Assembly: GCF_001457595.1 (NCBI RefSeq)
Contig: NZ_LN831039.1
Location: 510,001 to 542,000 of the forward strand
Reading direction: 5' to 3'
From: Mycolicibacterium smegmatis
Lineage (GTDB): Bacteria > Actinomycetota > Actinomycetes > Mycobacteriales > Mycobacteriaceae
DNA: 32,000 nucleotides
In this document: positions 12,878 through 28,336 of the stretch, in pieces
How the letters are laid out: each line of letters opens with the position of its first letter
Position numbering within the stretch: position 1 is the stretch's first letter
Program-made: the position numbers and the translations under genes
Notes under the pieces: generated by a model
The model's input: the letters and a program-made list of their open reading frames with translations, nothing else
What the model was told of the DNA's origin: nothing
Databases searched by the model: none

Positions 12878-12945
12878 GCGACCAGCGTAAGTACGTGGCT
12901 GCCATTCACCTAGTGCATGTTTTGACGATGCCATACGATCTGGTT

Positions 12946-13803
12946 ATGGAATGGACGCTGCGGGAACTCCGCGTTTTCGTGACGGCCGCCGATACCGGAT
13001 CGTTCACCGATGCCGCAGCGCAGCTTCATGTTTCGCAGGCCGCGGTGTCGCGCACGATCGCAGGCCTGGAGAAGATCGTCGGCGACAGGCTTCTGCGGCG
13101 GGTTCCGCGCGGGTGTGAGCTCACCGCGGCGGGACAGCAGATCCTGCCGCTGGCGCGCAGAGTGTTGGCCGAAGCCGAAAGCTTCACGGAGTTCCTGCAT
13201 TCGCGCCATGGAGTGTTGAGGCTGGGTTACGCGTGGGCCGCGGTCGGTCGGCACACCGCGCGTCTGCAACGGGACTGGGCGCAGCGGCAGGCTGACATCG
13301 AATTGGAACTGGTCCGGCACAATTCGCCCACGGCGGGGCTTGCGGAGGGTCTGTGTGACGTGGCGGTGATCCGGCGGCCGACCGACGAAAAGCGTTTCGC
13401 GTCGGTCATCGTCGGGCTGGAGCGTCGGCTTGTCGCGTTCGCATCCGACGACGAGCAGTGGTCGGGGCGCAGGCAGCTGAGCATGGCCGAGATCGCCGAC
13501 CGCACCGTGATCATCGATCCACGGATCGGCACCACGAGCAGCGAGTTGTGGGAAGGTTCGGGGCACGTGCCGCAGTTCATCGTGTCCACCGACGTCGACA
13601 CCTGGCTCGACGCGATCGCAGCCGGTCGTGGCGTGGGCACCACTGCCGAGGCCACCGCCCACCACCACCCGCGTCACGGCGTGACGTATCGGCCCATCAA
13701 GGACGGGCCCCGGATCGCGGTGCGGCTCGCATGGTGGCGCGACCATCGGCCGCGCGGCCTCGACGAGCTGGTCGACGCGGTGACCCGGCTCTACTCCACG
13801 TGA
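12946..13803 (+). CDS. LysR family transcriptional regulator
   Basis: MEWTLRELRVFVTAADTGSFTDAAAQLHVSQAAVSRTIAGLEK is a canonical LysR HTH. The start is trimmed from the track ORF (12835); the ATG at 12928 is an alternative. The gene is divergent from the EamA gene. Confidence 0.85.
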   Translation: MEWTLRELRVFVTAADTGSFTDAAAQLHVSQAAVSRTIAGLEKIVGDRLLRRVPRGCELTAAGQQILPLARRVLAEAESFTEFLHSRHGVLRLGYAWAAVGRHTARLQRDWAQRQADIELELVRHNSPTAGLAEGLCDVAVIRRPTDEKRFASVIVGLERRLVAFASDDEQWSGRRQLSMAEIADRTVIIDPRIGTTSSELWEGSGHVPQFIVSTDVDTWLDAIAAGRGVGTTAEATAHHHPRHGVTYRPIKDGPRIAVRLAWWRDHRPRGLDELVDAVTRLYST

Positions 13804-15505: not shown

Positions 15506-16309
15506 TCAGGGTGTGTCTTCACCTGATCCGTCGTCCACGCCGTCGCTGTCATCGGCAGGCGGCGCGTCGCCGGTATCGGGGGCGTCGCCGGTAGGCGGGT
15601 CGACAGCATCGGGTTGATCTCCGGCGCCGTGGTTGGGATTGGTGCAGATGGTGCCCTCGCAGGGCGAGTATCCGTTGCTGCCGTCGGGGTTCCTGATGGC
15701 GTCGGGCGCGACGAAAGTGCCCGCAGGGCACGCCGGATCCTGGTTCTTGGCGCAGTACTCGTGGGTCAGGTTGTTGCCGGTCGATCCGTCGGCACCGGCC
15801 GGGCCGCCGTTGATGGGCCGGCCGTCGGGGCCCCACGTCCCGACAGGGTCGGCGGCGCCGTGGTTCGGGTTGGTGCAGATGGTGCCCTCGCAGACCACGT
15901 ACGTGGGTGATCCGTCCGGGTTCCGGATGGCGTTCGGGCCGACGTAGCTGCCGACCGGGCAGGCCGGATCCTCATTGCGGGCGCAGTATTCCTGGGTCAG
16001 GTTGTTGCCGGTCGATCCGTCCGCGCCGACCGGACCGCCGTTCACGGGTGCCCCGTTGGCGTCCCAGTGACCGCCTCCCGATTTCACCGCGACGAATGGT
16101 CCGACGTAACTGCCCGCAGGACACTTCGAATCCCGGTTGTGCGCACAGAACTGTGTGTCCGGTGCCGGCGCGGCGCTCGACTGTGCGACCGCCGACGACG
16201 TGGCCGACGGGGATTCTTCGGCCGCAGGCCCCGATTGGGATCCGCAACCTCCCACAAGCAGGGCGAAAACCGCCGCAAGCAGCACGAACATCCTGGATCG
16301 CAACGTCAT
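15506..16309 (-). CDS. Secreted Cys-rich tandem-repeat lipoprotein with an acidic C-terminal tail; function unknown
   Basis: Signal peptide with lipobox LLVGGC and GGGGAGAG upstream of the ATG. Repeated modules are (Y/F)CA.N.D..CP.G.(Y/F)V.P, CEGTICTNPNHGA and NGGP.GADGSTGNNLT. There are 10 Cys after the lipobox Cys. The tail is DAPDTGDAPPADDSDGVDDGSGED. Confidence 0.7.
   Translation of the reverse strand: MTLRSRMFVLLAAVFALLVGGCGSQSGPAAEESPSATSSAVAQSSAAPAPDTQFCAHNRDSKCPAGSYVGPFVAVKSGGGHWDANGAPVNGGPVGADGSTGNNLTQEYCARNEDPACPVGSYVGPNAIRNPDGSPTYVVCEGTICTNPNHGAADPVGTWGPDGRPINGGPAGADGSTGNNLTHEYCAKNQDPACPAGTFVAPDAIRNPDGSNGYSPCEGTICTNPNHGAGDQPDAVDPPTGDAPDTGDAPPADDSDGVDDGSGEDTP
15617..16153 (-). repeat. 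In-frame tandem repeat with a 231-bp (77-aa) period inside the lipoprotein gene
   Basis: Identical 29-mers occur at 15762-15790 and 15993-16021. Identical 22-mers occur at 15641-15662 and 15872-15893. Both pairs are offset by exactly 231 bp. A shorter degenerate first unit lies at the 5' end of the gene. Confidence 0.85.
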
Positions 16310-16670: not shown

Positions 16671-16700
16671 TTGACCGTAGTTCTGGCAAATGTTTACGAT
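16671..16700 (+). promoter_or_regulatory. Candidate SigA-type promoter: TTGACC, 18-nt spacer, TACGAT
   Basis: The -35-like hexamer is at 16671-16676 and the -10-like TAnnnT hexamer at 16695-16700. It is oriented toward the LuxR-type regulator gene and would leave a 5' UTR of about 170 nt. This is a motif match only. Confidence 0.3.
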
Positions 16701-16878
16701 TCCTGCGGACCTCAGAGAGGGCCACTCGCGTGTTACAGGGGGGAACTGCGTTGAAGCGTGGATATGGGCCATCGTTGCTGGTCGGGGTTGCGAGCCGCCG
16801 ATGCCGTGGAGCCGGTCGCGGATTCGAGATCAACACTGCACTGGCACGACAAGGTTGCCGACGTTGACACAGGTGGAC

Positions 16879-17691
16879 ATGGGCAACGTCTCTTACGCTG
16901 CGACGCCGTCCGAACGGGAATCGGTGTGTGGACACACTGCTCTGTACCGTCGCCGATCGGCGCCAGGGGCCCGGACGTCATTCTCGTGCCAGGATGACCT
17001 GCGCGTTGTCCCAGATGACGGAGTCGGTCTGCTGCGGGACACGAGAATCCTCGTCGTCGACGACTCCACGCTGTACCGGGACTACCTCGCCGCGGCGCTC
17101 GCGGCGCATGGTGCGGTCGCTCCCGGCGTCGCCTGGGACGGGCCGTCCCTGCTCGCCTCGTTCGATGCCACCATGCCGCGCGTCATCCTGCTCAACATGG
17201 CCACTCGCGACAGCGCGACACTGCTGAAACAGGCCTTGGCGCTCGGACCGCACACGCGCGTCGTGGTCATCGGGATCGCAGAAGACGACGAAAGCGCGAT
17301 AGTCGCATGCGCGGAAGCCGGTGTGGCCGGCTACCACTCTCGTTCCGAGTCGCTCGACGAGCTCCTCGAACTGATCCACAAGGTAGCTGTGGGCGAGACG
17401 CTGTGTTCGCCGAAGGTTTCAGCAATCCTTCTCAGAAGGCTGTCGACACTGGCCGCCCAACGAGAGCCGGCACCGACAGAACTGGTTCTCACGCGTCGGG
17501 AGATCGAAATCCTGCGCATGCTCGAAGCCGGGCGCACGAACCGTGAGATCGCCGAGCAGCTCTGCATCGCCGTCCACACCGTGAAGAGCCACGTGCACAA
17601 TCTGCTGGCCAAGCTGGGCGTCAGCACGCGCGCGCAGGCGGCCGCGTTGTCCCGCACCATGCGGTACACCGCGGACCCACAAGAGGACTAG
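16879..17691 (+). CDS. LuxR/NarL-family regulator with an atypical (pseudo-)receiver domain
   Basis: The receiver fold reads RILVVDDS ... RVILLNMATRD ... VVVIGIA ... GVAGYHSRS, followed by the LuxR HTH LTRREIEILRMLEAGRTNREIAEQLCIAVHTVKSHVHNLLAKLGV. The phospho-acceptor position is Asn (AAC at 17194-17196). The start is uncertain: ATG 16879 or GTG 16924. The track start at 16690 lies in non-coding-looking DNA. Confidence 0.8.
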   Translation: MGNVSYAATPSERESVCGHTALYRRRSAPGARTSFSCQDDLRVVPDDGVGLLRDTRILVVDDSTLYRDYLAAALAAHGAVAPGVAWDGPSLLASFDATMPRVILLNMATRDSATLLKQALALGPHTRVVVIGIAEDDESAIVACAEAGVAGYHSRSESLDELLELIHKVAVGETLCSPKVSAILLRRLSTLAAQREPAPTELVLTRREIEILRMLEAGRTNREIAEQLCIAVHTVKSHVHNLLAKLGVSTRAQAAALSRTMRYTADPQED

Positions 17692-17856
17692 TCCGCGATC
17701 TAGACCGGTCCGGTCCCCGAAATCGATCCCCAATTCACTCTGATGGCCGATGTGCCAACAGCTTTCGGTGGCTGATAGTGAAGAGGTGTTCATGGGGGTA
17801 GCTGAGCGCCAGGTCGCTCGATCGCTGGAAACAGATCCGAATGAAGGATGTCGCTG

Positions 17857-19644
17857 ATGTGCGGGATCATCGCATGCCGCACGAACCGGCCAGCCGCGGA
17901 CTATCTCCGCGTCGGCCTGCGCAGGCTGGAGTACCGGGGTTACGACTCGGTGGGGGTTGCACTACAGACGGAGGCCGGCACCGTGGCCCGGTTGCGGACG
18001 ACCTCGCGTATCAGTGCACTGGAGTCGCTGCTCGACGAGTGGTCGGGACCGACCTTCGACGGAGTGGGCATCGGCCATACGCGGTGGGCAACACACGGCG
18101 CGGTCACGGAGACCAATGCGCACCCACACAGTGACTGCGGTGGTCGGCTCAGCCTGGTGCACAACGGGATCATCGAGAACGCAACGCAGTTGCGCACCGA
18201 GTTGAGCGCCGCCGGTCACAGGTTCACCTCGACCGTCGACAGCGAAGTGCTGTGCCATCTCATCGAAGACGAGCGGTCGAACGGCGCGGACCTGACCTGC
18301 GCAGTGCAGAACGCACTGGCGAAGGCGAGGGGCTCGTGGGCGCTGGCCGTTCTTGAACACGGCACCGGACGCATCGCCGTCGCGGCATCGGGTTCTCCTC
18401 TCGTCGTGGCGAACACGTCCCACGGTGACTTCGCGACGAGTGACGTCGCGGCCATCGCGGATTGGGCCGACGAGTTCCGTGTCCTCGAAGACGGTGATGT
18501 CGTGGAACTTTCCGTCGACGGCCGGTGGACCAGGGCGGGAATCCTCTCGGCGCCGCCGCCTGCGACACGGTGCACGCTGCGCACCCGTGACGTGGAACTC
18601 GACGGTTACACCGACTTCATGGCCAAAGAGATCGACGAACAACCCGAAGCGGTCGCGAGGGTCCTCGATTCGATGGCAGGCCGGATCGCCACCGGCGCTC
18701 TGTGGCGCGACTTCGGCCTGCCGTCTTTCGAACGGCTCCGTGTGATCGGCTGTGGGACTTCGCTCAACGCTGGCACCGTGATCGGCAACCTCGCGCGTGA
18801 CCTGGGCGGGATTCCGATGGCCACGACGGTGGCGAGTGAAGCGGCCATGGAGGTTTTCGATGCGGGACAGCTGTGGCTGGCCATCAGCCAGTCGGGCGAG
18901 ACCGCGGACGTACTGCGCGCGGTGGAGTCACCGGCGGTGAGCGAATCGTCACTGGTGGCGCTCACCAACAGCGGACACTCGACACTGGCACGCCTGGCCG
19001 ACGCGGTCGTGGGATGTGCGGCCGGCCCCGAAATCGGTGTGGCCGCCACGAAAACATTCGTCTGCCAGGTTGTTTCGGGGAGTGCGCTGATGATCTCCGC
19101 GCTCGTCGCGATGCGGCGGATCTCCGCGGCATCGGCCTCCCGGCTGGTCGACGATCTTCGGCGTCTGCCGGAGCAGCTCGATGCCGCGACCGTGACCGCC
19201 AAGAGCGTCGTACCGCCGATCGCCGAGGAACTCGCCACGGCAGGAGGATTCCTGTTCATCGCTCGCGGACTGGGCCTGCCGTATGCATCCGAAGGTGCGC
19301 TCAAACTCAAGGAACTCACCTACCGGTGGGTCGAGCACTACCCGGCCGGCGAACTGAAACACGGTCCGCTCGCGCTGGTCGGCAACGGAACTCCGGTGAT
19401 CGTCGTCAGCACAGGTGATCCGAAGATCGAAAGCAGCATCGCCGAGATACAGGCCCGCGGCGGACACGTCATCTCGATCGGCTCGGCGGGAAGCACGGTC
19501 GCAGTCACCGACGGGCCGAACGCGCCATGGGGTCCGATCACGGCCACCGTCGCCCTGCAGATCCTTGCACGGACCATGGCTCTGACGTTGGGCCGGGACG
19601 TCGACAAACCACGCAATCTCGCGAAGTCGGTGACGGTGGAATGA
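17857..19644 (+). CDS. glmS: Glutamine--fructose-6-phosphate aminotransferase (isomerising), operon-embedded copy
   Basis: The start is trimmed to give an MCGI N-terminus with the catalytic Cys at position 2. RLEYRGYDSVGVA and GHTRWATHG are present, followed by two SIS domains. The canonical C-terminus LAKSVTVE is present. Confidence 0.9.
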   Translation: MCGIIACRTNRPAADYLRVGLRRLEYRGYDSVGVALQTEAGTVARLRTTSRISALESLLDEWSGPTFDGVGIGHTRWATHGAVTETNAHPHSDCGGRLSLVHNGIIENATQLRTELSAAGHRFTSTVDSEVLCHLIEDERSNGADLTCAVQNALAKARGSWALAVLEHGTGRIAVAASGSPLVVANTSHGDFATSDVAAIADWADEFRVLEDGDVVELSVDGRWTRAGILSAPPPATRCTLRTRDVELDGYTDFMAKEIDEQPEAVARVLDSMAGRIATGALWRDFGLPSFERLRVIGCGTSLNAGTVIGNLARDLGGIPMATTVASEAAMEVFDAGQLWLAISQSGETADVLRAVESPAVSESSLVALTNSGHSTLARLADAVVGCAAGPEIGVAATKTFVCQVVSGSALMISALVAMRRISAASASRLVDDLRRLPEQLDAATVTAKSVVPPIAEELATAGGFLFIARGLGLPYASEGALKLKELTYRWVEHYPAGELKHGPLALVGNGTPVIVVSTGDPKIESSIAEIQARGGHVISIGSAGSTVAVTDGPNAPWGPITATVALQILARTMALTLGRDVDKPRNLAKSVTVE

Positions 19645-20942
19645 AAACCCGAACATCCGGAACATTCGCGGACTCTCAGCAGGAAAACGGGGAAGGAAGA
19701 CTGTTGATCACACTGCAACGCACGACGATTGCCGTCGTGGGACTCGGTTATGTGGGACTGCCCACCGCGCTGGCGTTCGCGGAGATGGGAGCAGAGATCA
19801 TCGGCTGTGACCTCAGCGAGGACCGGCTGGCGAACATCAAGACCGGAGACGTCGACATGCTGCCCCGGGACCGGACACGGCTTCTCCGACAGCTCGATTC
19901 GTTCAAGCTGACCACCGAGCCCAGTGCGATCGGAGTGGCCGACGCGGTCGTGGTGTGCGTCCCGACCCCGGTCGACCCGCATCAGTCCCCGGATCTGCGG
20001 GCGCTGACCGCAGCATGCGCCAACGTGGTGCGGTACGCGACGAAGGGACAACTCCTCGTTCTCACCTCGACGACATACGTGGGGTGCACACACGAGATGC
20101 TCGTCGAACCACTGCAAGCTGCGGGGTTCACGGTCGGCAAGGACATTTTCGTCGCGTTCAGTCCCGAACGCATCGATCCGGGAGTGAAGGATCACGCGCC
20201 GGAGCGGACGCCTCGCGTCGTCGGTGGTGTCACCCCGGCGTGCACGGCCCGCGCCGCAGCCCTGCTGAGGCATACCGCGAGTTCCGTGCACACCGTCTCT
20301 TCTCCCGAGTCCGCGGAGATGACCAAGTTGGTCGAGAACTCGTTCCGTGCGGTCAACATCGCTCTGGCCAACGAGTTCTCGGAAGTAGCCCGCGAACTGA
20401 GCGTCGACGTCATGGAGGTCATCGACGCGGCGGCGACCAAACCGTACGGGTTCATGCCGTTCTATCCGGGCCCGGGCGTCGGCGGCCACTGCATACCGTG
20501 CGATCCGCACTATCTCCTGTGGCAGTTGCGGGCCCGCCGATTCGACTCGCCCCTGATGCGGACAGCGATGACATGCATCGCCGCACGCCCACGCGACGTC
20601 GTGTCGCGGGCCCGGGAGATGCTGGCCGAGCGAGGGAAGCCCACGCAGGGCGCGCGTGTCCTGGTGGTCGGTGTCACGTACAAGCCGGGTGTCGCCGATC
20701 TGCGTGAGTCACCGGCACTGGCGATCATCGACGATCTCACCGCTGCCGGAGCCGTCGTCTCGTTCACCGACCCGCTGGTGCCCATGCTGCGGACGCCACG
20801 GGCCGGAACGCTCACCAATCACCGCTCGCCGGAACACGATGAGTGGGACCTGGTGCTGGTGCACCATTGGGCAGAAGAGCTCAGGGACTGGGTGTCGGCC
20901 CAGCCTGTGGTGCTCGACACCACATTCGGTCGGCGAGGCTGA
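19641..20942 (+). CDS. Nucleotide-sugar dehydrogenase of the WbpA/WbpO/WecC/TviB (UDP-N-acetylhexosamine) branch
   Basis: The ATG overlaps the glmS stop (ATGA at 19641-19644). Motifs are VVGLGYVGLPTA, VPTPV, FSPERIDPG, AEMTKLVENSFRAVNIALANE and AAATKPYGFMPFYPGPGVGGHCIPCDPHYL. The Ugd-type motifs (PEFLREG, GFGGSC.PKD) are absent. Confidence 0.85.
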   Translation: MKTRTSGTFADSQQENGEGRLLITLQRTTIAVVGLGYVGLPTALAFAEMGAEIIGCDLSEDRLANIKTGDVDMLPRDRTRLLRQLDSFKLTTEPSAIGVADAVVVCVPTPVDPHQSPDLRALTAACANVVRYATKGQLLVLTSTTYVGCTHEMLVEPLQAAGFTVGKDIFVAFSPERIDPGVKDHAPERTPRVVGGVTPACTARAAALLRHTASSVHTVSSPESAEMTKLVENSFRAVNIALANEFSEVARELSVDVMEVIDAAATKPYGFMPFYPGPGVGGHCIPCDPHYLLWQLRARRFDSPLMRTAMTCIAARPRDVVSRAREMLAERGKPTQGARVLVVGVTYKPGVADLRESPALAIIDDLTAAGAVVSFTDPLVPMLRTPRAGTLTNHRSPEHDEWDLVLVHHWAEELRDWVSAQPVVLDTTFGRRG

Positions 20943-20944
20943 AC

Positions 20945-22240
20945 GTGGCGACCATAGCGGCGGCAGATCGCACCATCGCCTCGGTGCGGCCGGCAGAGTT
21001 CGGCGTCAAGGTCGTGATCGTCATGACTTTGCTGCTCATCGTGATGCTCATATTCGGGTACAAGGTCGTGAGCCTTCAGAACATGAAGGACGAACCCTTC
21101 TGGGCGGCATACGGACTGGTCATCACCGCGTTCATCTTCACCAGGTTCGGTCTGGCCGCACTGTACCGTCCCCCGCGTCGCGATACCGAGAACTACTGGC
21201 CCGTCGTGGCCATCATCGTTCCCGCGTACAACGAACCCGACATCGCCAGGACACTCCTGCACTGCCTCGGTGTCGACTACCCGCGAGAACTGTTGCGTGT
21301 GGTCGTGGTCGACGACAAGAGCAGTGACGACACCCTGCGGCGGATCACTGATTTTGCCGCAGAGCACCCGAACCTGACGGTGATACCGCATGAAGTCAAC
21401 GGTGGAAAACGCCGGGCGATGGCCACAGGTATGGCAGCCGCTGACGACGCCGATCTGTTCGTCTTCATCGACAGCGACAGCCAGGTGACGCGTGACGCGA
21501 TACGAGTCATCGCATCGTATTTCGCTGACAGCTCGGTCGGCGCGGTGTGCGGGCATACCGACGACACCAACCTGTCCCACAACATCCTGACCCGCATGCA
21601 GGCGATGCAGTACTACATCGCCTTTCGCATCTACAAGTCGGCAGAGGCGTTGTTCGGATCGGTGACCTGCTGCTCGGGTTGCTTCTCGGCATATCGCGCC
21701 GATGCGGTACGGCCCGTGGCCGACAAGTGGTTGAACCAGACATTTCTCGGCCGCCCTTCGACTTTCGGTGACGACCGCAGCCTGACCAACTACCTGTTGC
21801 GGGACTGGCGCGTGCTGTACGCCCCCGACGCGCAGGCCTATACCAATGTGCCCGAACACCTCAAGCAGTTCTTGCGTCAGCAGTTGCGCTGGAAGAAGAG
21901 TTGGCTTCGGGAGGCGCCGCGGGCGATGTGTGCCGTGCGACGCAAGAACCCGGTCATGGTGGTGATGTTCGCTCTGAGCATCGTGCTGCCGTTCATCGCG
22001 CCTCAGGTGGTCATGAGGGCATTCGTCGTCCAACCGCATTTCATAAGTCAACTGCCGTTCTGGTACTTCGGCGGTGTCGCTGCGATCGCCGTCATCTACG
22101 GGCTGTTCTATCGGCTGCACCGACCTGTGAAGCGTTGGTACCAGGGCATTTTCTTCACGATGTTCTACACGATCATCCTTGTGCTGCAGATGCCGTACGC
22201 CATGGTGACGATCCGCGACAGCAAATGGGGGACGCGATGA
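20945..22240 (+). CDS. Processive family-2 glycosyltransferase, class-I hyaluronan-synthase (HasA)/NodC-like polysaccharide synthase
   Basis: The GTG start lies 2 nt after the upstream stop. There are 2 N-terminal and at least 3 C-terminal TM segments. Motifs are VPAYNE, VVVDDKSSD, FIDSDS (DxD), GDDRSLTNY (from 21767) and QQLRWKKSWLRE (from 21878). Confidence 0.85.
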   Translation: MATIAAADRTIASVRPAEFGVKVVIVMTLLLIVMLIFGYKVVSLQNMKDEPFWAAYGLVITAFIFTRFGLAALYRPPRRDTENYWPVVAIIVPAYNEPDIARTLLHCLGVDYPRELLRVVVVDDKSSDDTLRRITDFAAEHPNLTVIPHEVNGGKRRAMATGMAAADDADLFVFIDSDSQVTRDAIRVIASYFADSSVGAVCGHTDDTNLSHNILTRMQAMQYYIAFRIYKSAEALFGSVTCCSGCFSAYRADAVRPVADKWLNQTFLGRPSTFGDDRSLTNYLLRDWRVLYAPDAQAYTNVPEHLKQFLRQQLRWKKSWLREAPRAMCAVRRKNPVMVVMFALSIVLPFIAPQVVMRAFVVQPHFISQLPFWYFGGVAAIAVIYGLFYRLHRPVKRWYQGIFFTMFYTIILVLQMPYAMVTIRDSKWGTR

Positions 22241-23772
22241 GGCACCGTCGGCAACGTAAGAGCTACTCGATGGCGCTCACGGCGGTCTCGGCCAGCCTGG
22301 TCGCGGCGTACCTGGCCGCACCCAGTTACTGGCAGTGGCACCGAGCCGAGGAACGGCAGCAGCGTCTTGAGATCGTCCAGGTCGACACACCGTCGGGCGC
22401 GGTCGATCGACGGTTGGTGCATGAACTGCGCGATGCCACGGTGAGTTCGCAGAGCGCCCCGATCATCATCACCTACCACGACATCGGCTACAACGAATCG
22501 CCCTACACCGTGACGCCGGAGCGGTTCGCCACACAGATGCAACTGATCCACGACGCAGGCTGGACGACGCTGACGATCGACCAACTCGACGGATGGCTGG
22601 ACGGTGATCCGTTACCTCCGCACAGCGTGCTGGTCACCTTCGATGATGGAGCGAAAGGTGTGTGGCGGTATGCGGATCCGGTGCTCGCGCGGTTGGGGAT
22701 GCATGCCGCCGTGTTCCTCATCACCGGGTTCGTCGGAACCCACCAGCCCTACTACATGACGTGGGACGAGATCGGCCAACTGCACTCCAGCGGGCGGTGG
22801 GATCTACAGGTGCACACCCATCTGGGCCATGTCGAGGTGCCGGTCGATGCGGCGGGCAACCAGGCCCCGTTCCTCACCAGCCTGCAGTGGCTCGCCGACC
22901 ATGGCAGGAAAGAGACGCAGCAGGAGTACCACCGGCGGGTGCTGCAGGATCTCTCGGAATGCAAGCGACAGTTCCGCGCACACGGATTGCCCGAGCCGAG
23001 CTACTTCGCCTATCCGTTCTCTGCCCACGAGGGGGAATCCGAGGAAACCGAGCCACTGCAGGAGATCGTGACGTCGCTGTACCGCATGGCGCTGCTCGAT
23101 GATGCACTGGAGATCAGGACGAGCTCCAGCAGCGATGTGCAGGCCGGGATGATCCAGCGCATGGACATCGTCGCTGCCACCAGCACCGATCTGCTCGTCG
23201 ACAAGCTGGAGCAGGCCAGCCCGATCGACCCGAAGGCGTCGCGTCCGTTCGCTGACCCGACCGGGTGGGTCGACGGCACCAACAACCCGGCACCGGTCGA
23301 CCTCGATGCCGACACCCTGCAGATCAACCCCGACCCAGGCGAAGAGGTGATCCGGACCTACGCGCCGATTCGCAGCACGATGTGGACCGACTACACCATC
23401 GAAGTCGACGTGAGCGGTTTCGCTCCGGACGACTGGACGACGGCCGGCGTCACCGTGCTCAAGCCCAGCCGGGCGCCTTTCGACGGCAACGTCTCACAAC
23501 AGGTCGATGTGCGGATTCGCGGGAACTCGTTCGGTATCGGCCGCAGTTCGAAGGAGTTCGCAGATCACCCTCTCCTGCAGGGGAATTCGCACCACGTCGT
23601 CATCGATGTCACGGCGCAGCGGGTCACCGTCAGCGTCGACGGTGACATACCCCAGGTGATTGAACTGGACAGCAACCGGTCCCGCGGTGTCGGAGGCGGG
23701 GTGTCGTTCTGGGCGTACCGGCAGTCCGAGGCCAGCCCGCCGATCGTGTTCTCGAACCTCACGATTCGCTAG
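22237..23772 (+). CDS. Membrane-anchored polysaccharide deacetylase (NodB homology) fused to a C-terminal ConA/LamG-like (DUF1080-like) domain
   Basis: The ATG overlaps the GT2 stop (ATGA at 22237-22240). An N-terminal TM anchor is present. NodB motifs are TFDDG (22636-22650) and HTHLGH. About 130 C-terminal residues (roughly 23380-23769) have a beta-sandwich-like pattern ending GGGVSFWAY....IVFSNLTIR. Confidence 0.75.
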   Translation: MRHRRQRKSYSMALTAVSASLVAAYLAAPSYWQWHRAEERQQRLEIVQVDTPSGAVDRRLVHELRDATVSSQSAPIIITYHDIGYNESPYTVTPERFATQMQLIHDAGWTTLTIDQLDGWLDGDPLPPHSVLVTFDDGAKGVWRYADPVLARLGMHAAVFLITGFVGTHQPYYMTWDEIGQLHSSGRWDLQVHTHLGHVEVPVDAAGNQAPFLTSLQWLADHGRKETQQEYHRRVLQDLSECKRQFRAHGLPEPSYFAYPFSAHEGESEETEPLQEIVTSLYRMALLDDALEIRTSSSSDVQAGMIQRMDIVAATSTDLLVDKLEQASPIDPKASRPFADPTGWVDGTNNPAPVDLDADTLQINPDPGEEVIRTYAPIRSTMWTDYTIEVDVSGFAPDDWTTAGVTVLKPSRAPFDGNVSQQVDVRIRGNSFGIGRSSKEFADHPLLQGNSHHVVIDVTAQRVTVSVDGDIPQVIELDSNRSRGVGGGVSFWAYRQSEASPPIVFSNLTIR

Positions 23773-23781
23773 GGGCTGCAG

Positions 23782-24483
23782 ATGAAACGACTCATCGCCC
23801 TGGGCGCGCTCTGTTGCGCGGCGTGTGGTCACTCGGGTGCGCAGGGGTTGGGCCTCTCCGACGATTTCACCGGTCCCAATGGTGTGATCGCGGCCGAGGG
23901 TACGCCGGTGCAACCAGGTGACAAGTGGATCGTCACCAGCGGAACCTTGTTCCGGGACAACGGCACTGCGTGGACGGGTCCGCCGGACGAGTCCACGGGT
24001 TCGGAGGTCTTCCGGATGGTTTCGGTGGTCCGCGGGTTCAACGACCTGCAGATGTCGTTGGCGATGCGCGTCGACGCCATGTCGACGACGGCACGAACGC
24101 CTGCGCAGGACTACGACGGTGCACACATCTGGGTGCGCTACCAGTCCGATGTCGCGCTCTACGCCGTGAGTGTCGACCGACGCGATGCCACCATGACCAT
24201 CAAGAAGAAGTGCGCGGGCGGGACCGACAACGGCGGGACGTACTACGACCTGAACGGTTTCGTGCATGACGTACCCATTCCGTTCGGAAAATGGCAGCAC
24301 ATCGCGGTGACCGTCCGCGATCACCCAGATGGCTCGGTGTACATCGACGCCACGCGTGACGGGATCACGATGAGCGCGGTCGACGACGGTGTCGGCTGTG
24401 CACCGTTGCACGGCGGTGGTGTCGGGATCCGTGGCGACAACGCCGAACTCCGTTTCGCAGACATCTCGGTGACGTCGCTGTAG
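23782..24483 (+). CDS. Lipoprotein with a ConA/LamG-like (DUF1080-like) domain
   Basis: Signal peptide with Cys (LGALCCAACG). The body reads WQHIAVTVRD..DGSVYIDATRDG ... GGGVGIRGDNAELRFADISV. This parallels the C-terminal domain of the preceding protein. The gene starts 9 nt after that protein's stop. Confidence 0.65.
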   Translation: MKRLIALGALCCAACGHSGAQGLGLSDDFTGPNGVIAAEGTPVQPGDKWIVTSGTLFRDNGTAWTGPPDESTGSEVFRMVSVVRGFNDLQMSLAMRVDAMSTTARTPAQDYDGAHIWVRYQSDVALYAVSVDRRDATMTIKKKCAGGTDNGGTYYDLNGFVHDVPIPFGKWQHIAVTVRDHPDGSVYIDATRDGITMSAVDDGVGCAPLHGGGVGIRGDNAELRFADISVTSL

Positions 24484-24518: not shown

Positions 24519-25178
24519 CTACGCCGGTTGGTTGTGGCGGGGCAGGGTCGCGTAGGCGAATTCGAACAGGTAGTCGCTCAGGGCGAGGGATGCTCCATTC
24601 GCGGCTTCGGCGTTGCCTGCCGCGATCGCGGCGAGGATGTCATGGTGCAGCTGGGCGGCCCGACGCAGCTCCTCGACCGGATCGCTCAGATGCCCGAACC
24701 AGAAGCGTCGTGAGAGCCCCTGAAGTGGTGCCATCGCCACTTCGATGTATTCGTTGTGGGTTGCCGCGACGACCAGCGCGTGCGCTTTACGCAGGAAGTT
24801 TGAGAAGTCGGTGACGGTCTTGTCACCGCTCACAACGTCCTCGGCGAGTTCGCGGGCGGCTTGTCGTTGTGAATCGGTCGCCCGCGAGGCAGCGACTCGC
24901 ACGGCGAACGGTTCGAGTATGCGGCGCAATTCGAGGAGTTTGAGCTGCGCTTCGACGGAGGTGGGCGGAACCAGCACTCCCCGGTTGGGGTGGATCTCCA
25001 GCAGCCGCTCCCGCGAAAGCCGCTGCACCGCTTCCCGCACCGGCGTGCGGCCCAACCCGGTGAGCTCCATCAGCTGTTTCTCGGAGACGAGACTTCCTGG
25101 CGCGATTTCGCCGAGCACGATCATGCGCTCGATCTCGACGAAGGCTTGATCGCTCTTGTTCTGCGGCTCGCTGGTCAT
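24519..25178 (-). CDS. GntR family regulator (FadR/FCD subfamily)
   Basis: The winged HTH reads SEKQLMELTGLGRTPVREAVQRLSRERLLEIHPNRGVLV. The C-terminal domain is all-helical. Confidence 0.85.
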   Translation of the reverse strand: MTSEPQNKSDQAFVEIERMIVLGEIAPGSLVSEKQLMELTGLGRTPVREAVQRLSRERLLEIHPNRGVLVPPTSVEAQLKLLELRRILEPFAVRVAASRATDSQRQAARELAEDVVSGDKTVTDFSNFLRKAHALVVAATHNEYIEVAMAPLQGLSRRFWFGHLSDPVEELRRAAQLHHDILAAIAAGNAEAANGASLALSDYLFEFAYATLPRHNQPA

Positions 25179-25218
25179 TTGCCTCCTCTCGGTGGGCTAG
25201 ACAGTATCGCGCTCGGAG

Positions 25219-26619
25219 ATGTACGGTCCACATATGACTGATATATCGGTTGTATGGCGGCTGCGGCCGGAGATGGGCGATCACCGACTTCCCGTGGTGG
25301 CCGACGTCGATGTCGCGGTGGTCGGAGCCGGCGCTGCAGGAGTCGCCGCCGCGACTGTGGCCGCCGAAGCGGGCCTCTCGGTGGTGGTCGTGGAGAAATA
25401 CGGGTTCGCCGGCGGGGCGGCCGTGGCAGGTATGTCCGGCACCATCTGCGGGATGTACCTGGCTTCCGACTCCGCGTCGCGGCCCGAGAGGGTCGTGCAC
25501 GGCTTCACTGAGCGGTTCGCCGGGGAGTTGACCGTCCGCGGCGGACTCACGGCGCCACAGCGATATGGCAAGACCTTCACCGTTGCTCACGATCCGCTGG
25601 TGTGGCGGGAGGTCGCAGATGACCTGATGACCGCGGCAGGCGTCCGAATTCTCTATCACACCCAGGTGATCGATGTCCTGATCGAAGGCGACGACTATCA
25701 GGGGTTGGTTTTGGCGTCGAACGCCGGGGTTGGCGTGGTACGGGCGGCCAGGATCATCGATGCCTCGGGCGACGGTGCGGTGGTGGCACGCGCGGGCGGC
25801 GGGTATCGGTTCGGCGATCACGGGCGCATCCAGAACCCCACGATGTTCTTTCGGCTGGGTAACGTCGATCTGCACGCCTTCTGGTCCGCATGGGGGCCCA
25901 ACACGATCTCACCGCAATGGGTTTCCGACGCCATCGAACAGGCGCGTACCGCTGGACTGGATCTCCCCAGAAACAAGATCTGGATCTTCGACACCACCCG
26001 TCCTGGTGAGTTGCTCGTGAATGCGACCCGGCTCACGGCGCCGGACGGTCGCATGCTGAACGTGATCGACCCTGCGGACTTCACCATTGCTGAGGTCGAG
26101 GGGCGTCGTCAGGTGCGCGCATATGCCCGGTTCCTCGCAGAAAACGTTCCGGGATGTGGGCACGCTTTCGTGGTGGACACCGGCGTCGAAGCAGGCATTC
26201 GTCAGACCCGCACGGTGGACTGCATCGAGACGCTGCGGGACGGTGACGTCGTCGATGGCGCGAAACGTGACGACAGCATCTGCCGATCACCGTGGCCGAT
26301 TGAGTTGCACGACGGTGAAAAGCCCAAGCTTCATTGGCTTCTGGATGACTACTATGACGTCCCATACGGTGCGTTGGTGCCCCAACGCGGTGAGAACATC
26401 ATCGTGGCCGGCCGCTGCTTGAGCGCCGAACACCAGGCGCTCGCCTCTGCGCGGGTCACCGCACAGTGTTTCGAGTACGGCCATGCCGCCGCGGTGGCCA
26501 CCGCCCTCTCACTCGATCGCGGCACTGCCTATCGCGACCTGGACCCGGCCGGTATCCAAGCCCGGATGATCGCCAGCGGAAGCGCATTACGCACCCCTCA
26601 ACGACAGGATGTCCCGTGA
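25219..26619 (+). CDS. FAD-dependent oxidoreductase (FAD_oxidored/GIDA-like fold), substrate unknown
   Basis: The dinucleotide-binding motif is DVAVVGAGAAGVAAATVAAEAGLSVVVVEK. The start is ambiguous: ATG at 25219, 25234 or 25273. The stop overlaps the next start (GTGA at 26616-26619). Confidence 0.75.
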   Translation: MYGPHMTDISVVWRLRPEMGDHRLPVVADVDVAVVGAGAAGVAAATVAAEAGLSVVVVEKYGFAGGAAVAGMSGTICGMYLASDSASRPERVVHGFTERFAGELTVRGGLTAPQRYGKTFTVAHDPLVWREVADDLMTAAGVRILYHTQVIDVLIEGDDYQGLVLASNAGVGVVRAARIIDASGDGAVVARAGGGYRFGDHGRIQNPTMFFRLGNVDLHAFWSAWGPNTISPQWVSDAIEQARTAGLDLPRNKIWIFDTTRPGELLVNATRLTAPDGRMLNVIDPADFTIAEVEGRRQVRAYARFLAENVPGCGHAFVVDTGVEAGIRQTRTVDCIETLRDGDVVDGAKRDDSICRSPWPIELHDGEKPKLHWLLDDYYDVPYGALVPQRGENIIVAGRCLSAEHQALASARVTAQCFEYGHAAAVATALSLDRGTAYRDLDPAGIQARMIASGSALRTPQRQDVP

Positions 26620-28310
26620 CCGACAACTTCGAACGCGCAGGCGCGCCCGGCGAACTGCGTAGCAACTTCACGCCGGGAAGCACGCGCTGGGCCGTACGTC
26701 GCGCGCAATGGAGCGCCATGGGGATCGATTGGCGCGACCAGGAGAAGCCCAAGATCGCAATTGTCAACACCTCCTCGAAACTGTCCGTGTGTTTCGCGCA
26801 TCTCGATGACGTGGCCGTGCGGGTCGCCGAGGCGGTACGCGCAGCCGGAGGCCTTCCGTTCGAGATTCGTACGACGGCGCCAAGCGATTTCGTCACCAGT
26901 GCTGGGCGGAAGGCGCGCTACCTGATGCCTACCCGCGATCTCATCGTCAATGATGTCGAGGCAGCGGTGGAAGGTGCGGTGCTCGACGGAGTCGTTTTTC
27001 TCTCGTCGTGTGACAAGACGACTCCTGCGCATCTGATGGCAGCGGCGCGGCTGGACCTTCCTGCCATCGTCGTCATCGGCGGGTACCAACGCGGCGGCAC
27101 CTGGAGCGGATGTTCGGTGGACATTGACACCGTGTACGAATCCGTCGGTGCCTTGACCGCAGGCACGATGACCGTCGACCAACTCGGTGAGTTGGCGGAT
27201 CAGGCGATCGAGGGGCCGGGGGTGTGCGCCGGACTCGCCACCGCGAACACCATGCACTGCCTTGCTGAAGCTCTCGGCATGACGGTGGCGGGATCTGCAC
27301 CGGTACGGGCGAACTCCGATCGAATGCTGGACAATGCCGCAGCAGCCGGACACCACATCGTGAAGATGGTCGAGCAGAACCTCACTGCGCGCCAGGTCAT
27401 CACCGAGAAGTCGATCGAGAACGCCATCGAGGTGGCGCTTGCCCTCGGCGGGTCGGTCAACTGTATTCGCCACCTGGCGGCGATCTGCGCCGAGGCGGAC
27501 CTCGATCTGGATGTGGTTGGCATGTTCGAGAAGCACGGCGGGGATGCCGTCCAGCTCGCGGCCATCCGTCCGAACGGTGCGCACCAGGTGTGGGATCTCG
27601 ACGGAGTGGGCGGCATCCAGACTGTGATGCGTACTCTGCTTCCCCGTCTGCACGGCGATGCGCTCACAGTCGACGGCCGCACCGTGTCAGAGCGTGCAGC
27701 AGATGCGCAACCTGCCGACGGTGACGTGCTGCACCCGCTCGACGACCCCATCAACGACGAGCCCGGCCTGATCATCCTGCGCGGATCCCTGGCGCCGGAT
27801 GGATCGATCGTCAAGGTCGCCGGTGTCGGTAAGGCGACCCGTCGCCAGTTCAATGGCCCGGCAAAGGTTTTCGTGGGTGAGGATGACGCCATTGCCGCAC
27901 TCGGTGACGGCCGGATCCAACGCGGCGACGTCATTGTGCTGCGGGGCATGGGGCCACGTGGAGGGCCGGGCACGGTCTTCGCGGCGAGCTTCGTCGCCGC
28001 GCTGAACGGGGCGGGGCTAGGCGGCCACGTCGCAGTGGTCACCGACGGTGAACTCTCCGGACTCAATCACGGACTCGTGGTCGGGCAGGTCATGCCCGAA
28101 GCCGCCGACGGCGGCCCACTGGCCGGACTCCAGAACGGAGACACCGTCGCGATCGACCTGGACGCTCGTCGGATCGACAGCCACCCGATCCGCGACGGTG
28201 AGCCGGTGCGTGCCACCGGAGAACACCCGGAACGCGGCTGGCTCGGACAGTATGCGGCCCTGGTCGGCCCGGTCCAGCGTGGTGCGGTACTTCGCAGGCC
28301 GCGCAATTGA
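26616..28310 (+). CDS. IlvD/Edd family dehydratase (probably a sugar-acid dehydratase)
   Basis: The track ORF 26466..28310 is trimmed to the GTG at 26616 (VTDNFERAG...). Motifs are PKIAIVNTSS, SSCDKTTPAHLMAAARLDLPAIVV, and LVTDGELSG-like VVTDGELSGL. Confidence 0.85.
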   Translation: MTDNFERAGAPGELRSNFTPGSTRWAVRRAQWSAMGIDWRDQEKPKIAIVNTSSKLSVCFAHLDDVAVRVAEAVRAAGGLPFEIRTTAPSDFVTSAGRKARYLMPTRDLIVNDVEAAVEGAVLDGVVFLSSCDKTTPAHLMAAARLDLPAIVVIGGYQRGGTWSGCSVDIDTVYESVGALTAGTMTVDQLGELADQAIEGPGVCAGLATANTMHCLAEALGMTVAGSAPVRANSDRMLDNAAAAGHHIVKMVEQNLTARQVITEKSIENAIEVALALGGSVNCIRHLAAICAEADLDLDVVGMFEKHGGDAVQLAAIRPNGAHQVWDLDGVGGIQTVMRTLLPRLHGDALTVDGRTVSERAADAQPADGDVLHPLDDPINDEPGLIILRGSLAPDGSIVKVAGVGKATRRQFNGPAKVFVGEDDAIAALGDGRIQRGDVIVLRGMGPRGGPGTVFAASFVAALNGAGLGGHVAVVTDGELSGLNHGLVVGQVMPEAADGGPLAGLQNGDTVAIDLDARRIDSHPIRDGEPVRATGEHPERGWLGQYAALVGPVQRGAVLRRPRN

Positions 28311-28336
28311 GCTCGCCGAATCGAAGGAGTCATGTC

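What the first reader, a model, noticed from the sequence alone, without database searches (positions are those of the whole stretch)
20945..22240. The GT2 carries the class-I hyaluronan-synthase signature rather than a generic GT2 pattern
- The translation contains CCSGCFSAYR....NQTFLG.P..FGDDRSLTNY.........YAP.A.A.T.VP..LKQFLRQQLRWKKSWLRE.
- From memory, Streptococcus HasA reads ..GPLS.YRR....NQTFLG.PVSIGDDRCLTNYA....Y.....C.TDVP..LK.YLKQQNRWNKSFFRE.
- NodC instead has GEDRHLT and QQLRWARS.
- The match to HasA therefore extends beyond the universal D, DxD, ED, QxxRW set.
- The topology (2 N-terminal plus C-terminal TM segments) matches class-I HAS.
- Bacterial HasA homologues are rare outside streptococci, and I know of no characterised actinobacterial one.
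Basis: partly seen in the sequence, partly recalled or inferred. Interest (0 to 1): 0.65.

Follow-up and report, generated by a model that had tools for sequence, protein, structure and literature searches.

The report
HAS-like exopolysaccharide synthase operon, M. smegmatis
This Mycolicibacterium smegmatis gene does look like a hyaluronan synthase in sequence and fold, but its own evolutionary branch and its neighbour genes suggest it makes and exports a different, still uncharacterised amino-sugar polymer rather than hyaluronan.

Summary
The 431-aa GT2 (20945-22240, +) aligns end to end with S. pyogenes HasA (31% identity, E 1e-61). It shares QTFLG, GDDR, LTN, RWxKSxxRE and a C-terminal WGTR with HasA and with viral and vertebrate HAS, where NodC differs. 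Its high-confidence model best matches Xenopus and Chlorovirus HAS structures.

The protein is not inside the HasA clade. It belongs to a large separate clade (at least 144 clusters at 50% identity), while NodC groups with the true HASs, so the "HAS signature" looks ancestral and does not diagnose the product.

Context also argues against hyaluronan. The gene sits in a tightly coupled operon: glmS paralogue, nucleotide-sugar dehydrogenase, GT2, membrane-anchored PgaB-like CE4 deacetylase, ConA-like lipoprotein.
- Across 92 related loci a deacetylase follows in 61/71 evaluable cases.
- A dehydrogenase precedes in 31/64, always of the WecC/TviB (N-acetylhexosamine) type and never HasB type.
- GalU/HasC is never nearby.

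Most likely it is a processive synthase-translocase for a partly de-N-acetylated GlcNAc/N-acetylhexosaminuronic acid polymer. HasA-like genes are not rare, and pipelines already label this family "hyaluronan synthase". I found no experimental study.

The parts
17857..19644 (+). glmS paralogue (glutamine--fructose-6-phosphate aminotransferase). It would supply hexosamine precursor for the pathway. The likely true start is the MCG... codon at 17857; the ORF's first ATG is at 17848.
   Evidence: NCBIfam NF001484 557 bits and TIGR01135 538 bits, both above cutoff. Its stop overlaps the next gene's ATG (ATGA at 19641-19644). GlmS is also upstream in the close loci L014 and L020.
19641..20942 (+). 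Nucleotide-sugar 6-dehydrogenase of the N-acetylhexosamine (WecC/Cap5O/TviB) branch. Inferred to be a UDP-GlcNAc (or UDP-ManNAc) dehydrogenase that makes the uronic-acid donor.
   Evidence: All three Pfam UDPG_MGDP_dh domains are present. NCBIfam scores: UDP-ManNAc DH 222 bits, TviB 167 bits, UDP-Glc DH models 44-138 bits. PDB best matches are Cap5O at 185 bits and P. horikoshii UDP-ManNAcA DH at 179 bits, with UDP-Glc DHs at 107 bits or less. B. cereus HasB, by contrast, scores 570 bits on the UDP-Glc DH model.
20945..22240 (+). The finding: a HAS-like processive GT2 synthase-translocase of 431 aa, ending exactly at WGTR.
22237..23772 (+). Membrane-anchored CE4 polysaccharide N-deacetylase (PgaB/BpsB/IcaB-like) with a C-terminal domain of about 220 aa that gives a weak LamG/ConA-like signal.
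   Evidence: Pfam PF01522 E 5e-16 and TIGR03938 PgaB 108 bits. PDB BpsB 5bu6 E 6e-17. TFDD and HxxxxH motifs are visible in the translation. ATGA overlap with the GT2 stop. A homologue lies downstream of the GT2 in 61/71 evaluable loci. The C-terminus gives a weak Laminin_G_2 hit.
23782..24483 (+). Probable lipoprotein with a ConA-like beta-jelly-roll fold. It could be a polymer-binding module or a lyase/hydrolase; this is unresolved.
   Evidence: AF2 pLDDT 91. Foldseek matches are CBM66, ulvan lyase PL28, legume lectins and alginate/glucuronan lyases, all with TM 0.58 or less. Orthologues lie next to the operon in Mycolicibacterium, Rhodococcus, Smaragdicoccus, Pseudonocardia and Acidimicrobiia. 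Some sources name it '3-keto-disaccharide hydrolase domain'.
16690..17691 (+). LuxR-family response regulator directly upstream. A candidate regulator only; any link to the operon is unproven.
   Evidence: Pfam GerE 65 bits plus Response_reg 32.5 bits.

Best explanation
The GT2 is the catalytic and export subunit of a synthase-dependent exopolysaccharide operon: glmS2, dehydrogenase, synthase, deacetylase, ConA-like lipoprotein. It works like a class-I hyaluronan synthase. A single cytosolic GT-A domain (D124, D176xD178, G275DDR, Q312QLRW) transfers sugars from UDP donors, and the growing chain is pushed through a channel formed by its own five transmembrane and interface helices, gated by the C-terminal WGTR loop.

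The product is most likely not hyaluronan. It is more likely an N-acetylhexosamine-based acidic polymer. GlmS2 boosts UDP-GlcNAc supply. The co-translated dehydrogenase oxidises a UDP-N-acetylhexosamine (GlcNAc favoured, ManNAc possible) to the uronic acid. The synthase polymerises GlcNAc with, or as, HexNAcA through beta linkages. Outside the membrane the anchored CE4 enzyme removes some N-acetyl groups, and the ConA-like lipoprotein binds or trims the polymer.

Shown here: homology, fold, motifs, operon structure and conservation of the partners. Inferred: donor sugars, linkages, partial deacetylation and the lipoprotein's role.
For: HAS-like machine:
- Full-length alignment to HasA, E 1e-61.
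- Catalytic and gating motifs are invariant across 50 homologues.
- AF2 pLDDT 89.5, pTM 0.89. Foldseek best hits are XlHAS1 with nascent HA (TM 0.78) and CvHAS with UDP-GlcA (TM 0.72, rmsd 3.7).
- Acceptor-collar residues named in PMC11750622 are conserved: Y223, F227, C242/243, GDDR, W316, S319.

Operon:
- ATGA overlaps or gaps of 2-9 nt join all five genes.

Partners across 92 loci:
- CE4 downstream in 61/71 evaluable loci.
- Dehydrogenase upstream in 31/64, all of M. smegmatis type or TviB-like and none HasB-like.
- GalU in 0/49.
- GT2-CE4, NTP-transferase-GT2 and GlmS-GATase-GT2 fusions exist.

Dehydrogenase type:
-. In the homologous Paenibacillus operon the dehydrogenase in the same position scores 429 bits on the TviB (UDP-GlcNAc 6-DH) model.
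- No UDP-GlcNAc 2-epimerase appears in any listed neighbourhood.

Beta-GlcNAc content:
- GH18 genes flank the operon in 7/49 long loci and in Paenibacillus.

Exported polymer:
- The deacetylase has an N-terminal membrane anchor and the last gene product has a lipoprotein-like signal.

Compatible with an anionic chain:
- K40, R228, K231 and R358 are conserved basic residues in TM/interface helices. Position 222 is R in most family members.
Against: - No biochemical or genetic data exist for any family member in the literature I could search.
- The dehydrogenase meets no equivalog cutoff. Its clade also contains a TDP-glucose dehydrogenase (CalS8, 146 bits), so a UDP-glucose substrate is not excluded.
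- Half of the related loci have no adjacent dehydrogenase.
- No residue separates synthases with an adjacent dehydrogenase from those without, so uronic-acid use by the synthase itself is unproven.
- The residue equivalent to XlHAS1 R287, proposed to stabilise GlcA, is Q in M. smegmatis.
- The trees are neighbour-joining only, with a single outgroup.
Confidence: 0.55

Rival explanations
1. It is a chitin/chitosan-type synthase. The GT2 polymerises only UDP-GlcNAc into a beta-1,4 chain, which the CE4 enzyme partly deacetylates. The dehydrogenase would serve another purpose or contribute only a minor or priming sugar.
For: - The universal partner is the deacetylase, not the dehydrogenase (61/71 against 31/64 loci).
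- GH18 (chitinase-family) genes are neighbours in several loci.
- Pfam Chitin_synth_2 hit at 77 bits.
- No residue differences between synthases with and without an adjacent dehydrogenase.
- Streptococcal HAS itself makes chitin oligomers from UDP-GlcNAc alone (review PMC10939387).
Against: - In M. smegmatis the dehydrogenase is translationally coupled on both sides, inside the operon.
- It holds the same position in Mycolicibacterium, Rhodococcus, Arthrobacter, Pseudonocardia, Smaragdicoccus and Paenibacillus.
- GH18 co-occurs with dehydrogenase-containing operons (L002, L060, L066, L068).
- Conserved basic residues in the channel helices fit an anionic chain.
Confidence: 0.22
2. It is a genuine hyaluronan synthase, as the first reader leaned towards and as the automatic annotation states. 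The adjacent dehydrogenase would be a divergent UDP-glucose dehydrogenase, and the polymer would be HA, possibly partly deacetylated.
For: - HAS motif set, topology and fold.
- Pairwise scores are slightly higher to HasA than to NodC, and this holds for most family representatives.
- JGI and UniRef name family members 'hyaluronan synthase'.
- The dehydrogenase clade includes a glucose-type enzyme, CalS8.
Against: - The family is a separate clade, and NodC is closer to true HASs than this family is.
- The dehydrogenase scores 44-138 bits on UDP-Glc DH models, against 570 bits for a real HasB.
- The Paenibacillus counterpart dehydrogenase is TviB-like.
- No galU/hasC nearby in 0/49 loci.
- has operons have no deacetylase.
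- The automatic names are unverified.
Confidence: 0.1
3. It is a NodC-like chito-oligosaccharide synthase paired with a NodB-like deacetylase, making short signalling oligomers.
For: - The best NCBIfam model is NodC at 197 bits.
- 32-33% identity to NodC.
- CE4 is the NodB family.
Against: - The NodC score is far below the cutoff of 550.
- NodC-specific states (GEDR, LTIL, WLSR, E at position 222) are absent.
- The CE4 protein is about 510 aa, membrane-anchored and PgaB-like, so it acts outside the cell.
- No nodA or nodIJ genes are nearby.
- NodC is phylogenetically separate.
Confidence: 0.04
4. It is a PNAG (beta-1,6-GlcNAc) synthase equivalent to PgaC/IcaA, working with a PgaB/IcaB-like deacetylase.
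For: - The deacetylase's best matches are PgaB/BpsB/IcaB.
- The PgaC model scores 118 bits.
Against: - The PgaC cutoff of 422 is not met, and the pairwise score is only 100 bits.
- PgaC lacks the QxFLG/GDDR/WGTR states.
- The fold and profile matches are HAS.
- No PgaD/IcaD-like small partner was seen.
- The dehydrogenase and GH18 neighbours do not fit PNAG.
Confidence: 0.03

Closest known systems
Streptococcal / Bacillus cereus class-I hyaluronan synthase HasA (has operon hasA-hasB-hasC)
   Same: Same size of about 420-430 aa. Same topology (2 N-terminal plus C-terminal membrane helices). About 31% identity end to end. Shared QxFLG, GDDR, LTN, QQxRWxKSxxRE and C-terminal WGTR. Encoded next to a nucleotide-sugar dehydrogenase.
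   Different: It sits in a separate clade. The partner dehydrogenase is WecC/TviB-type, not HasB (UDP-Glc DH). There is no hasC/galU. A CE4 deacetylase and a ConA-like lipoprotein are added. The product is unknown.
Chlorovirus CvHAS and Xenopus XlHAS1 (class I-NR HAS with cryo-EM structures)
   Same: These are the best structural matches (TM 0.72-0.78). The acceptor collar, GDDR, QxxRW and WGTR gating loop are conserved.
   Different: Only 21-29% identity. The viral and vertebrate enzymes carry extra C-terminal helices after WGTR, whereas this protein stops at WGTR. XlHAS1 R287 is Q in M. smegmatis.
Rhizobial NodC with NodB (chito-oligosaccharide synthase and deacetylase)
   Same: Similar length, 30-33% identity, and pairing of the GT2 with a CE4 deacetylase.
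   Different: NodC has GEDR, WLSR and E at the first interface-helix basic position. NodB is a small cytosolic enzyme, whereas here the CE4 is large, membrane-anchored and PgaB-like. The NCBIfam cutoff is not met.
PgaC-PgaB / IcaA-IcaB PNAG systems
   Same: The logic is the same: a membrane GT2 synthase followed by an extracytoplasmic CE4 that partly de-N-acetylates the exported GlcNAc polymer.
   Different: The synthase is HAS-like rather than PgaC-like (100 bits). There is no PgaD or PgaA. The dehydrogenase implies an acidic sugar that PNAG lacks.
TviB / WbpA / WecC / Cap5O UDP-N-acetylhexosamine dehydrogenases (Vi antigen, ECA, S. aureus capsule)
   Same: The operon's dehydrogenase belongs to this branch. 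The Paenibacillus counterpart is clearly TviB-like at 429 bits.
   Different: Those enzymes feed Wzy- or ABC-dependent pathways with separate glycosyltransferases. Here the dehydrogenase is coupled to a HAS-like synthase. No equivalog cutoff is met for the M. smegmatis enzyme.

Membership tests
Class I hyaluronan synthase (HasA / CvHAS / vertebrate HAS) | Single GT2 module with D, DxD, GDDR and QxxRW, plus the WGTR gating-loop motif | tested here: met
   D124, D176/D178, G275-D-D-R278, Q312-Q-L-R-W316 and W428-G-T-R431 are invariant across 50 homologues including HasA.
Class I hyaluronan synthase (HasA / CvHAS / vertebrate HAS) | Integral membrane protein whose own helices form the polymer channel, with a HAS fold | tested here: met
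   AF2 pLDDT 89.5. Foldseek XlHAS1 TM 0.78 and CvHAS TM 0.72, against chitin synthase about 0.52. Five hydrophobic helices. The channel itself is inferred and was not examined.
Class I hyaluronan synthase (HasA / CvHAS / vertebrate HAS) | Phylogenetic placement inside a clade of demonstrated HASs | tested here: not met
   The family forms its own clade (86-99%). The split {HasA + eukaryotic HAS + NodC} is supported at 95-100%, and {family + HasA} at 0%. These are neighbour-joining trees only.
Class I hyaluronan synthase (HasA / CvHAS / vertebrate HAS) | In bacteria, operon with a UDP-glucose 6-dehydrogenase (hasB), with or without a UDP-glucose pyrophosphorylase (hasC) | tested here: not met
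   The dehydrogenase scores 44-138 bits on UDP-Glc DH models, against 570 bits for B. cereus HasB. GalU is present in 0/49 long loci.
Class I hyaluronan synthase (HasA / CvHAS / vertebrate HAS) | Product is alternating beta-1,4-GlcA / beta-1,3-GlcNAc made from UDP-GlcA and UDP-GlcNAc | not testable with these tools
   This needs enzyme assays or polymer analysis. The structurally defined GlcA contacts (K177, R341 and the priming loop of CvHAS; PMC12987647) are generic residues also present in NodC.
NodC chito-oligosaccharide synthase | NCBIfam TIGR04242 equivalog score of at least 550 | tested here: not met
   197 bits.
NodC chito-oligosaccharide synthase | NodC-specific motif states (GEDRHLT, QQLRWARS, WLSR) and nodA/nodB/nodIJ neighbours | tested here: not met
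   The window protein has GDDRSLT, RWKKS and WGTR. Its neighbours are glmS, a dehydrogenase, a PgaB-like CE4 and a ConA-like lipoprotein.
PgaC/IcaA PNAG synthase | NCBIfam TIGR03937 score of at least 422, and a small PgaD/IcaD partner | tested here: not met
   118 bits. No small membrane partner gene lies between the GT2 and the CE4, because the two genes overlap.
Synthase-dependent exopolysaccharide systems (generic: membrane GT2 synthase plus extracytoplasmic modifying enzyme in one operon) | A processive membrane GT2 co-encoded with a secreted or anchored polymer-modifying enzyme, conserved across taxa | tested here: met
   CE4 lies downstream in 61/71 evaluable loci, and GT2-CE4 fusions exist.
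Synthase-dependent exopolysaccharide systems (generic: membrane GT2 synthase plus extracytoplasmic modifying enzyme in one operon) | c-di-GMP control of the synthase (PilZ or equivalent) | tested here: inconclusive
   The M. smegmatis protein has no PilZ domain. The Paenibacillus homologue has an N-terminal PilZ (27 bits). The Rhodococcus operon is followed by a GGDEF-EAL protein.

The most novel reading that the evidence does not exclude
M. smegmatis and many soil Actinomycetota, Bacillota and uncultured bacteria carry an undescribed synthase-dependent pathway. In it, a HAS-like enzyme would co-polymerise GlcNAc and N-acetylglucosaminuronic acid made by a dedicated UDP-GlcNAc 6-dehydrogenase. 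The exported chain, an 'N-acetylated hyaluronan analogue' or chitin-uronic acid, would then be partly de-N-acetylated to give a zwitterionic matrix polymer. A further consequence would be that many genes annotated 'hyaluronan synthase', including Bacillales genes inside the HasA clade that sit next to the same dehydrogenase type, do not make hyaluronan.
Probability: 0.4. Interest if true: 0.75.

Novelty: new variant of a known kind. Interest (0 to 1): 0.55.

Why it matters
The polysaccharides of mycobacterial biofilm matrices are poorly defined, and M. smegmatis is a genetically tractable model. A conserved five-gene operon built around a self-exporting HAS-like synthase is a concrete and easily testable candidate for an unknown extracellular polymer.

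For glycobiology, this clade sits outside the HAS + NodC group yet keeps every "HAS" motif. Product specificity in this superfamily therefore cannot be read from those motifs. Hundreds of database entries named "hyaluronan synthase" are probably mis-assigned.

If the donor is UDP-GlcNAcA, the enzyme would offer a natural route to hyaluronan or chitin analogues of biomaterial interest. It would also be a comparison point for how HAS selects two donors.

Tried and rejected
1. Literature: eight searches combining M. smegmatis/mycobacteria/actinobacteria with hyaluronan synthase, chitin synthase, NodC, deacetylase, c-di-GMP and GlcNAcA found nothing on this operon or family. Papers opened on leads were unrelated: Frankia nod genes, bacterial CHS transfer, Actinoplanes EPS, epsSMASH, cell-free GTs.

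2. Residues that bind GlcA: I looked for residues that could tell HAS from GlcNAc-only enzymes. The contacts reported for CvHAS and XlHAS1 (K177, R341, priming loop, R287, R296) are generic or variable, so they are not diagnostic.

3. Specificity-determining positions: I compared synthases with and without an adjacent dehydrogenase. No column differed by more than 0.41 in frequency.

4. The ConA-like lipoprotein: I hoped a clear lyase fold would prove a polyuronate. Foldseek gave only generic jelly-roll matches (CBM66, lectins, PL28/PL7/PL20 lyases, TM 0.58 or less). There is no detectable similarity to the deacetylase C-terminus by BLASTP.

5. RNA and signals: no riboswitch or other RNA family was found upstream or anywhere in the window. 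Promoter and terminator scans were at chance level.

7. One contig look-up (P0087) found nothing.

8. The M. smegmatis locus tag could not be established with the tools.
Full report
**What is there.** The window is Mycolicibacterium smegmatis DNA. The protein encoded at 20945-22240 is 100% identical to an NCBI "glycosyltransferase family 2 protein [M. smegmatis]" of 431 aa. The ORF begins with GTG two bases after the stop of the upstream gene and ends exactly at ...SKWGTR. Pfam sees GT2 and Chitin_synth_2 domains. In NCBIfam the best models are NodC (197 bits, cutoff 550) and PgaC (118 bits, cutoff 422), and neither cutoff is met.

**Checking the observation.** A from-memory HasA probe retrieved S. 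pyogenes HasA at 100% identity (P0121). Real NodC genes were taken from Sinorhizobium, Rhizobium and Bradyrhizobium symbiosis plasmids.

Pairwise scores for the M. smegmatis protein:

| Comparison | Score |
|---|---|
| HasA | 171-193 bits; 31% identity over residues 23-431, E 1e-61 |
| NodC | 154-173 bits |
| XlHAS1 | 126 bits |
| CvHAS | 119 bits |
| PgaC | 100 bits |

In the multiple alignment the protein and its relatives share several states with HasA and with viral and vertebrate HAS where NodC differs:

| This family, HasA and eukaryotic/viral HAS | NodC |
|---|---|
| NQTFLG | QLFRG |
| GDDR | GEDR |
| LTN | LTI |
| RWxKSxxRE | RWARSTFRD |
| WGTR | WLSR |

Hydropathy and the AlphaFold model both give two N-terminal and three C-terminal membrane helices plus an interface helix.

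**Structure.** An AF2 model built on 50 homologues is confident (pLDDT 89.5, pTM 0.89).
- Foldseek against the PDB puts Xenopus HAS1 (TM 0.77-0.78) and Chlorovirus HAS (TM up to 0.74, rmsd 3.7 Å) first, well ahead of cellulose and chitin synthases (about 0.5-0.66).
- Sequence and profile searches of the PDB agree: CvHAS E 4e-31 against chitin synthase 3e-7. With the family profile, XlHAS1 scores 242 bits, CvHAS 218 bits and chitin synthase 55 bits.
- Residues that the cryo-EM papers place around the acceptor sugar (Y288, F292, C307, GDDR, W382 and S385 of XlHAS1; PMC11750622) are conserved here as Y223, F227, C242/C243, G275-R278, W316 and S319.

Mechanistically this is a HAS-type processive synthase-translocase.

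**Why it is not simply a HasA.**

First, phylogeny. I built neighbour-joining trees on 400 trimmed columns, using 23 family members, 19 HasA-clade proteins, three NodC, CvHAS, XlHAS1 and PgaC.
- The window's family is its own clade, with 86% bootstrap using corrected p-distances and 99% using BLOSUM-score distances.
- The split that unites HasA, eukaryotic/viral HAS and NodC against this family plus PgaC has 95-100% support.
- A family + HasA grouping has 0% support.

NodC, which makes GlcNAc-only oligomers, is therefore closer to true HASs than this protein is. The "HAS" motif states are best read as ancestral states that NodC lost, not as markers of GlcA use. The structurally defined contacts to the GlcA carboxylate in CvHAS (K177, R341 and the end of the priming loop; PMC12987647) are likewise present in NodC.

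Second, the family is large. An exhaustive search of 1.84 billion representatives gave 608 clusters at E ≤ 1e-30. Of the best 150 clusters, 144 are closer to the M. smegmatis or Paenibacillus protein than to HasA or NodC. HasA-clade proteins at about 50% identity to HasA are also common in Bacillales. The statement that such homologues are rare is therefore wrong, and JGI and UniRef already label many family members "hyaluronan synthase".

**Genomic context.** The gene lies in a five-gene, tightly coupled unit:
- a glmS paralogue (17857-19644);
- a nucleotide-sugar dehydrogenase (19641-20942), whose start overlaps the glmS stop in an ATGA;
- the GT2;
- a CE4 polysaccharide deacetylase (22237-23772), again with an ATGA overlap;
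- a 233-aa probable lipoprotein (23782-24483), 9 nt further on.

The dehydrogenase-GT2-deacetylase core, usually with the small protein, recurs in Mycolicibacterium chubuense, Rhodococcus, Arthrobacter, Pseudonocardia and Smaragdicoccus. With a different dehydrogenase subtype it also occurs on a Paenibacillus megaplasmid, where the GT2 carries an N-terminal PilZ domain and a GH18 gene follows.

Over 92 loci (genomes plus 80 metagenome contigs):
- a CE4 gene follows the GT2 on the same strand in 61 of 71 loci with enough sequence;
- a dehydrogenase directly precedes it in 31 of 64, of which 20 are M. smegmatis type, 11 are TviB-like and none is HasB-like;
- GalU never appears (0/49);
- GH18 appears in 7/49.

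Fusion proteins joining GT2 to CE4, NTP-transferase to GT2 and a GlmS-type amidotransferase to GT2 exist in the family.

**The dehydrogenase.**
- By NCBIfam it scores 222 bits on UDP-ManNAc DH, 167 bits on TviB and 44-138 bits on UDP-glucose DH models.
- By PDB search it is closest to Cap5O (185 bits) and the Pyrococcus UDP-ManNAcA DH (179 bits), with UDP-glucose DHs at 107 bits or less.
- Five other actinobacterial operon dehydrogenases give the same ranking.
- The Paenibacillus one scores 429 bits on the TviB (UDP-GlcNAc 6-dehydrogenase) model.
- A real HasB, from the B. cereus has operon, scores 570 bits on the UDP-glucose DH model.

No UDP-GlcNAc 2-epimerase is present in any neighbourhood examined, so UDP-GlcNAc is the more economical substrate. 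This is an inference. CalS8, a TDP-glucose dehydrogenase, belongs to the same broad branch (146 bits), so a glucose-type substrate cannot be excluded.

**The other partners.** The deacetylase has an N-terminal membrane anchor, the TFDD and HxxxxH CE4 motifs, and best matches to PgaB, BpsB and IcaB. It would therefore act on an exported N-acetylated polymer. Its C-terminal 220 aa and the downstream lipoprotein both give weak LamG/ConA signals. The lipoprotein's model (pLDDT 91) is a beta-jelly roll. It resembles CBM66, lectins and several polyuronate lyases only generically, so its role as binder or lyase is unresolved.

**Best explanation (confidence about 0.55).** This is a synthase-dependent exopolysaccharide operon. 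A HAS-like enzyme polymerises and exports a GlcNAc-based polymer that incorporates an N-acetylhexosaminuronic acid made by the coupled dehydrogenase, most likely GlcNAcA. The chain is then partly de-N-acetylated at the cell surface.

**Rivals.**

| Rival | Confidence | Main reasons |
|---|---|---|
| GlcNAc-only chitin/chitosan-like polymer | 0.22 | The deacetylase is the more universal partner, GH18 genes are nearby, and no residue distinguishes synthases with an adjacent dehydrogenase |
| Authentic hyaluronan | 0.10 | |
| NodC-like oligosaccharides | 0.04 | |
| PNAG | 0.03 | |

**Unexpected side result.** Two Bacillales genes inside the HasA clade (Alicyclobacillus, Lysinibacillus) sit next to M. 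smegmatis-type dehydrogenases (46% and 38% identity) rather than HasB-type ones. Even HasA-clade membership may not guarantee hyaluronan.

**Novelty and limits.** I found no publication on this operon or family in the searchable library. The current HAS review lists class I enzymes only from streptococci, a chlorovirus and vertebrates, with B. cereus and Cryptococcus as candidates (PMC10939387). I rate it a new variant of a known kind: the machine type is known, while the operon architecture and probable product are undescribed. Three limits apply:
- The trees are distance-based with one outgroup.
- All substrate assignments are inferred.
- Absence from the searched literature is not proof of absence.

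Noticed in passing
L100:5001-7641 (Alicyclobacillus) and L101:3179-6293 (Lysinibacillus): Two Bacillales synthases that fall inside the HasA clade (about 50% identical to S. pyogenes HasA) are adjacent to dehydrogenases 46% and 38% identical to the M. smegmatis operon dehydrogenase, and only 26% identical to B. cereus HasB. No deacetylase is present. Many 'HasA' annotations in Bacillales may therefore not be hyaluronan synthases.
   Followed up: partly
L006:8001-9995 and L016:6191-8245 (Rhodococcus); L006:12534-16526: The Rhodococcus orthologue is 664 aa, with an N-terminal GlmS-type glutamine amidotransferase-like domain fused to the synthase (weak Pfam GATase_7 hit, plus a phmmer hit to the window's GlmS). 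The operon is followed by a 1330-aa GGDEF-EAL protein, hinting at c-di-GMP control.
   Followed up: partly
L002:2538-10168 (Paenibacillus cellulositrophicus plasmid): A homologous operon reads: double-CE4 deacetylase, TviB-like dehydrogenase (unannotated in the PLSDB table, ORF 4031-5275), PilZ-GT2, CE4, GH18. The PilZ domain has RxxxR and DxSxxG-like motifs.
   Followed up: partly
L011:10124-11503 and L027:3896-5647 (Acidimicrobiia): In operons that lack the dehydrogenase, a PL9/Pel9A-like beta-helix protein sits between the deacetylase and the ConA-like protein. It may be a polymer-cleaving enzyme.
   Followed up: no
window 17848-19644: A complete glmS paralogue is translationally coupled to the dehydrogenase through an ATGA overlap. 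The annotated-style first ATG at 17848 would put MSL in front of the obligatory N-terminal Cys, so the real start is probably 17857.
   Followed up: partly
window 16690-17691: A LuxR-family response regulator (REC plus GerE) with an unassigned N-terminal extension of about 115 aa lies immediately upstream of the operon on the same strand. It is a possible dedicated regulator.
   Followed up: no
window 24519-29710: Downstream there is a divergently oriented GntR/FCD regulator. It is followed by a FAD-dependent oxidoreductase (PF12831), a dihydroxy-acid/6-phosphogluconate dehydratase-family protein and an MFS sugar transporter. This looks like a sugar-acid catabolic cluster, and any link to the polymer is unknown.
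   Followed up: no
window 11178-13944 (- strand) and 15506-16309 (-): Long ORFs of 575, 344 and 267 aa have no Pfam hit at E ≤ 1e-5. I did not check whether they are real genes.
   Followed up: no
P0250, P0301, P0244 (family representatives): Natural fusions of the HAS-like GT2 occur with a CE4 deacetylase (910 and 1202 aa) and with an N-terminal sugar-nucleotidyltransferase domain (667 aa).
   Followed up: partly
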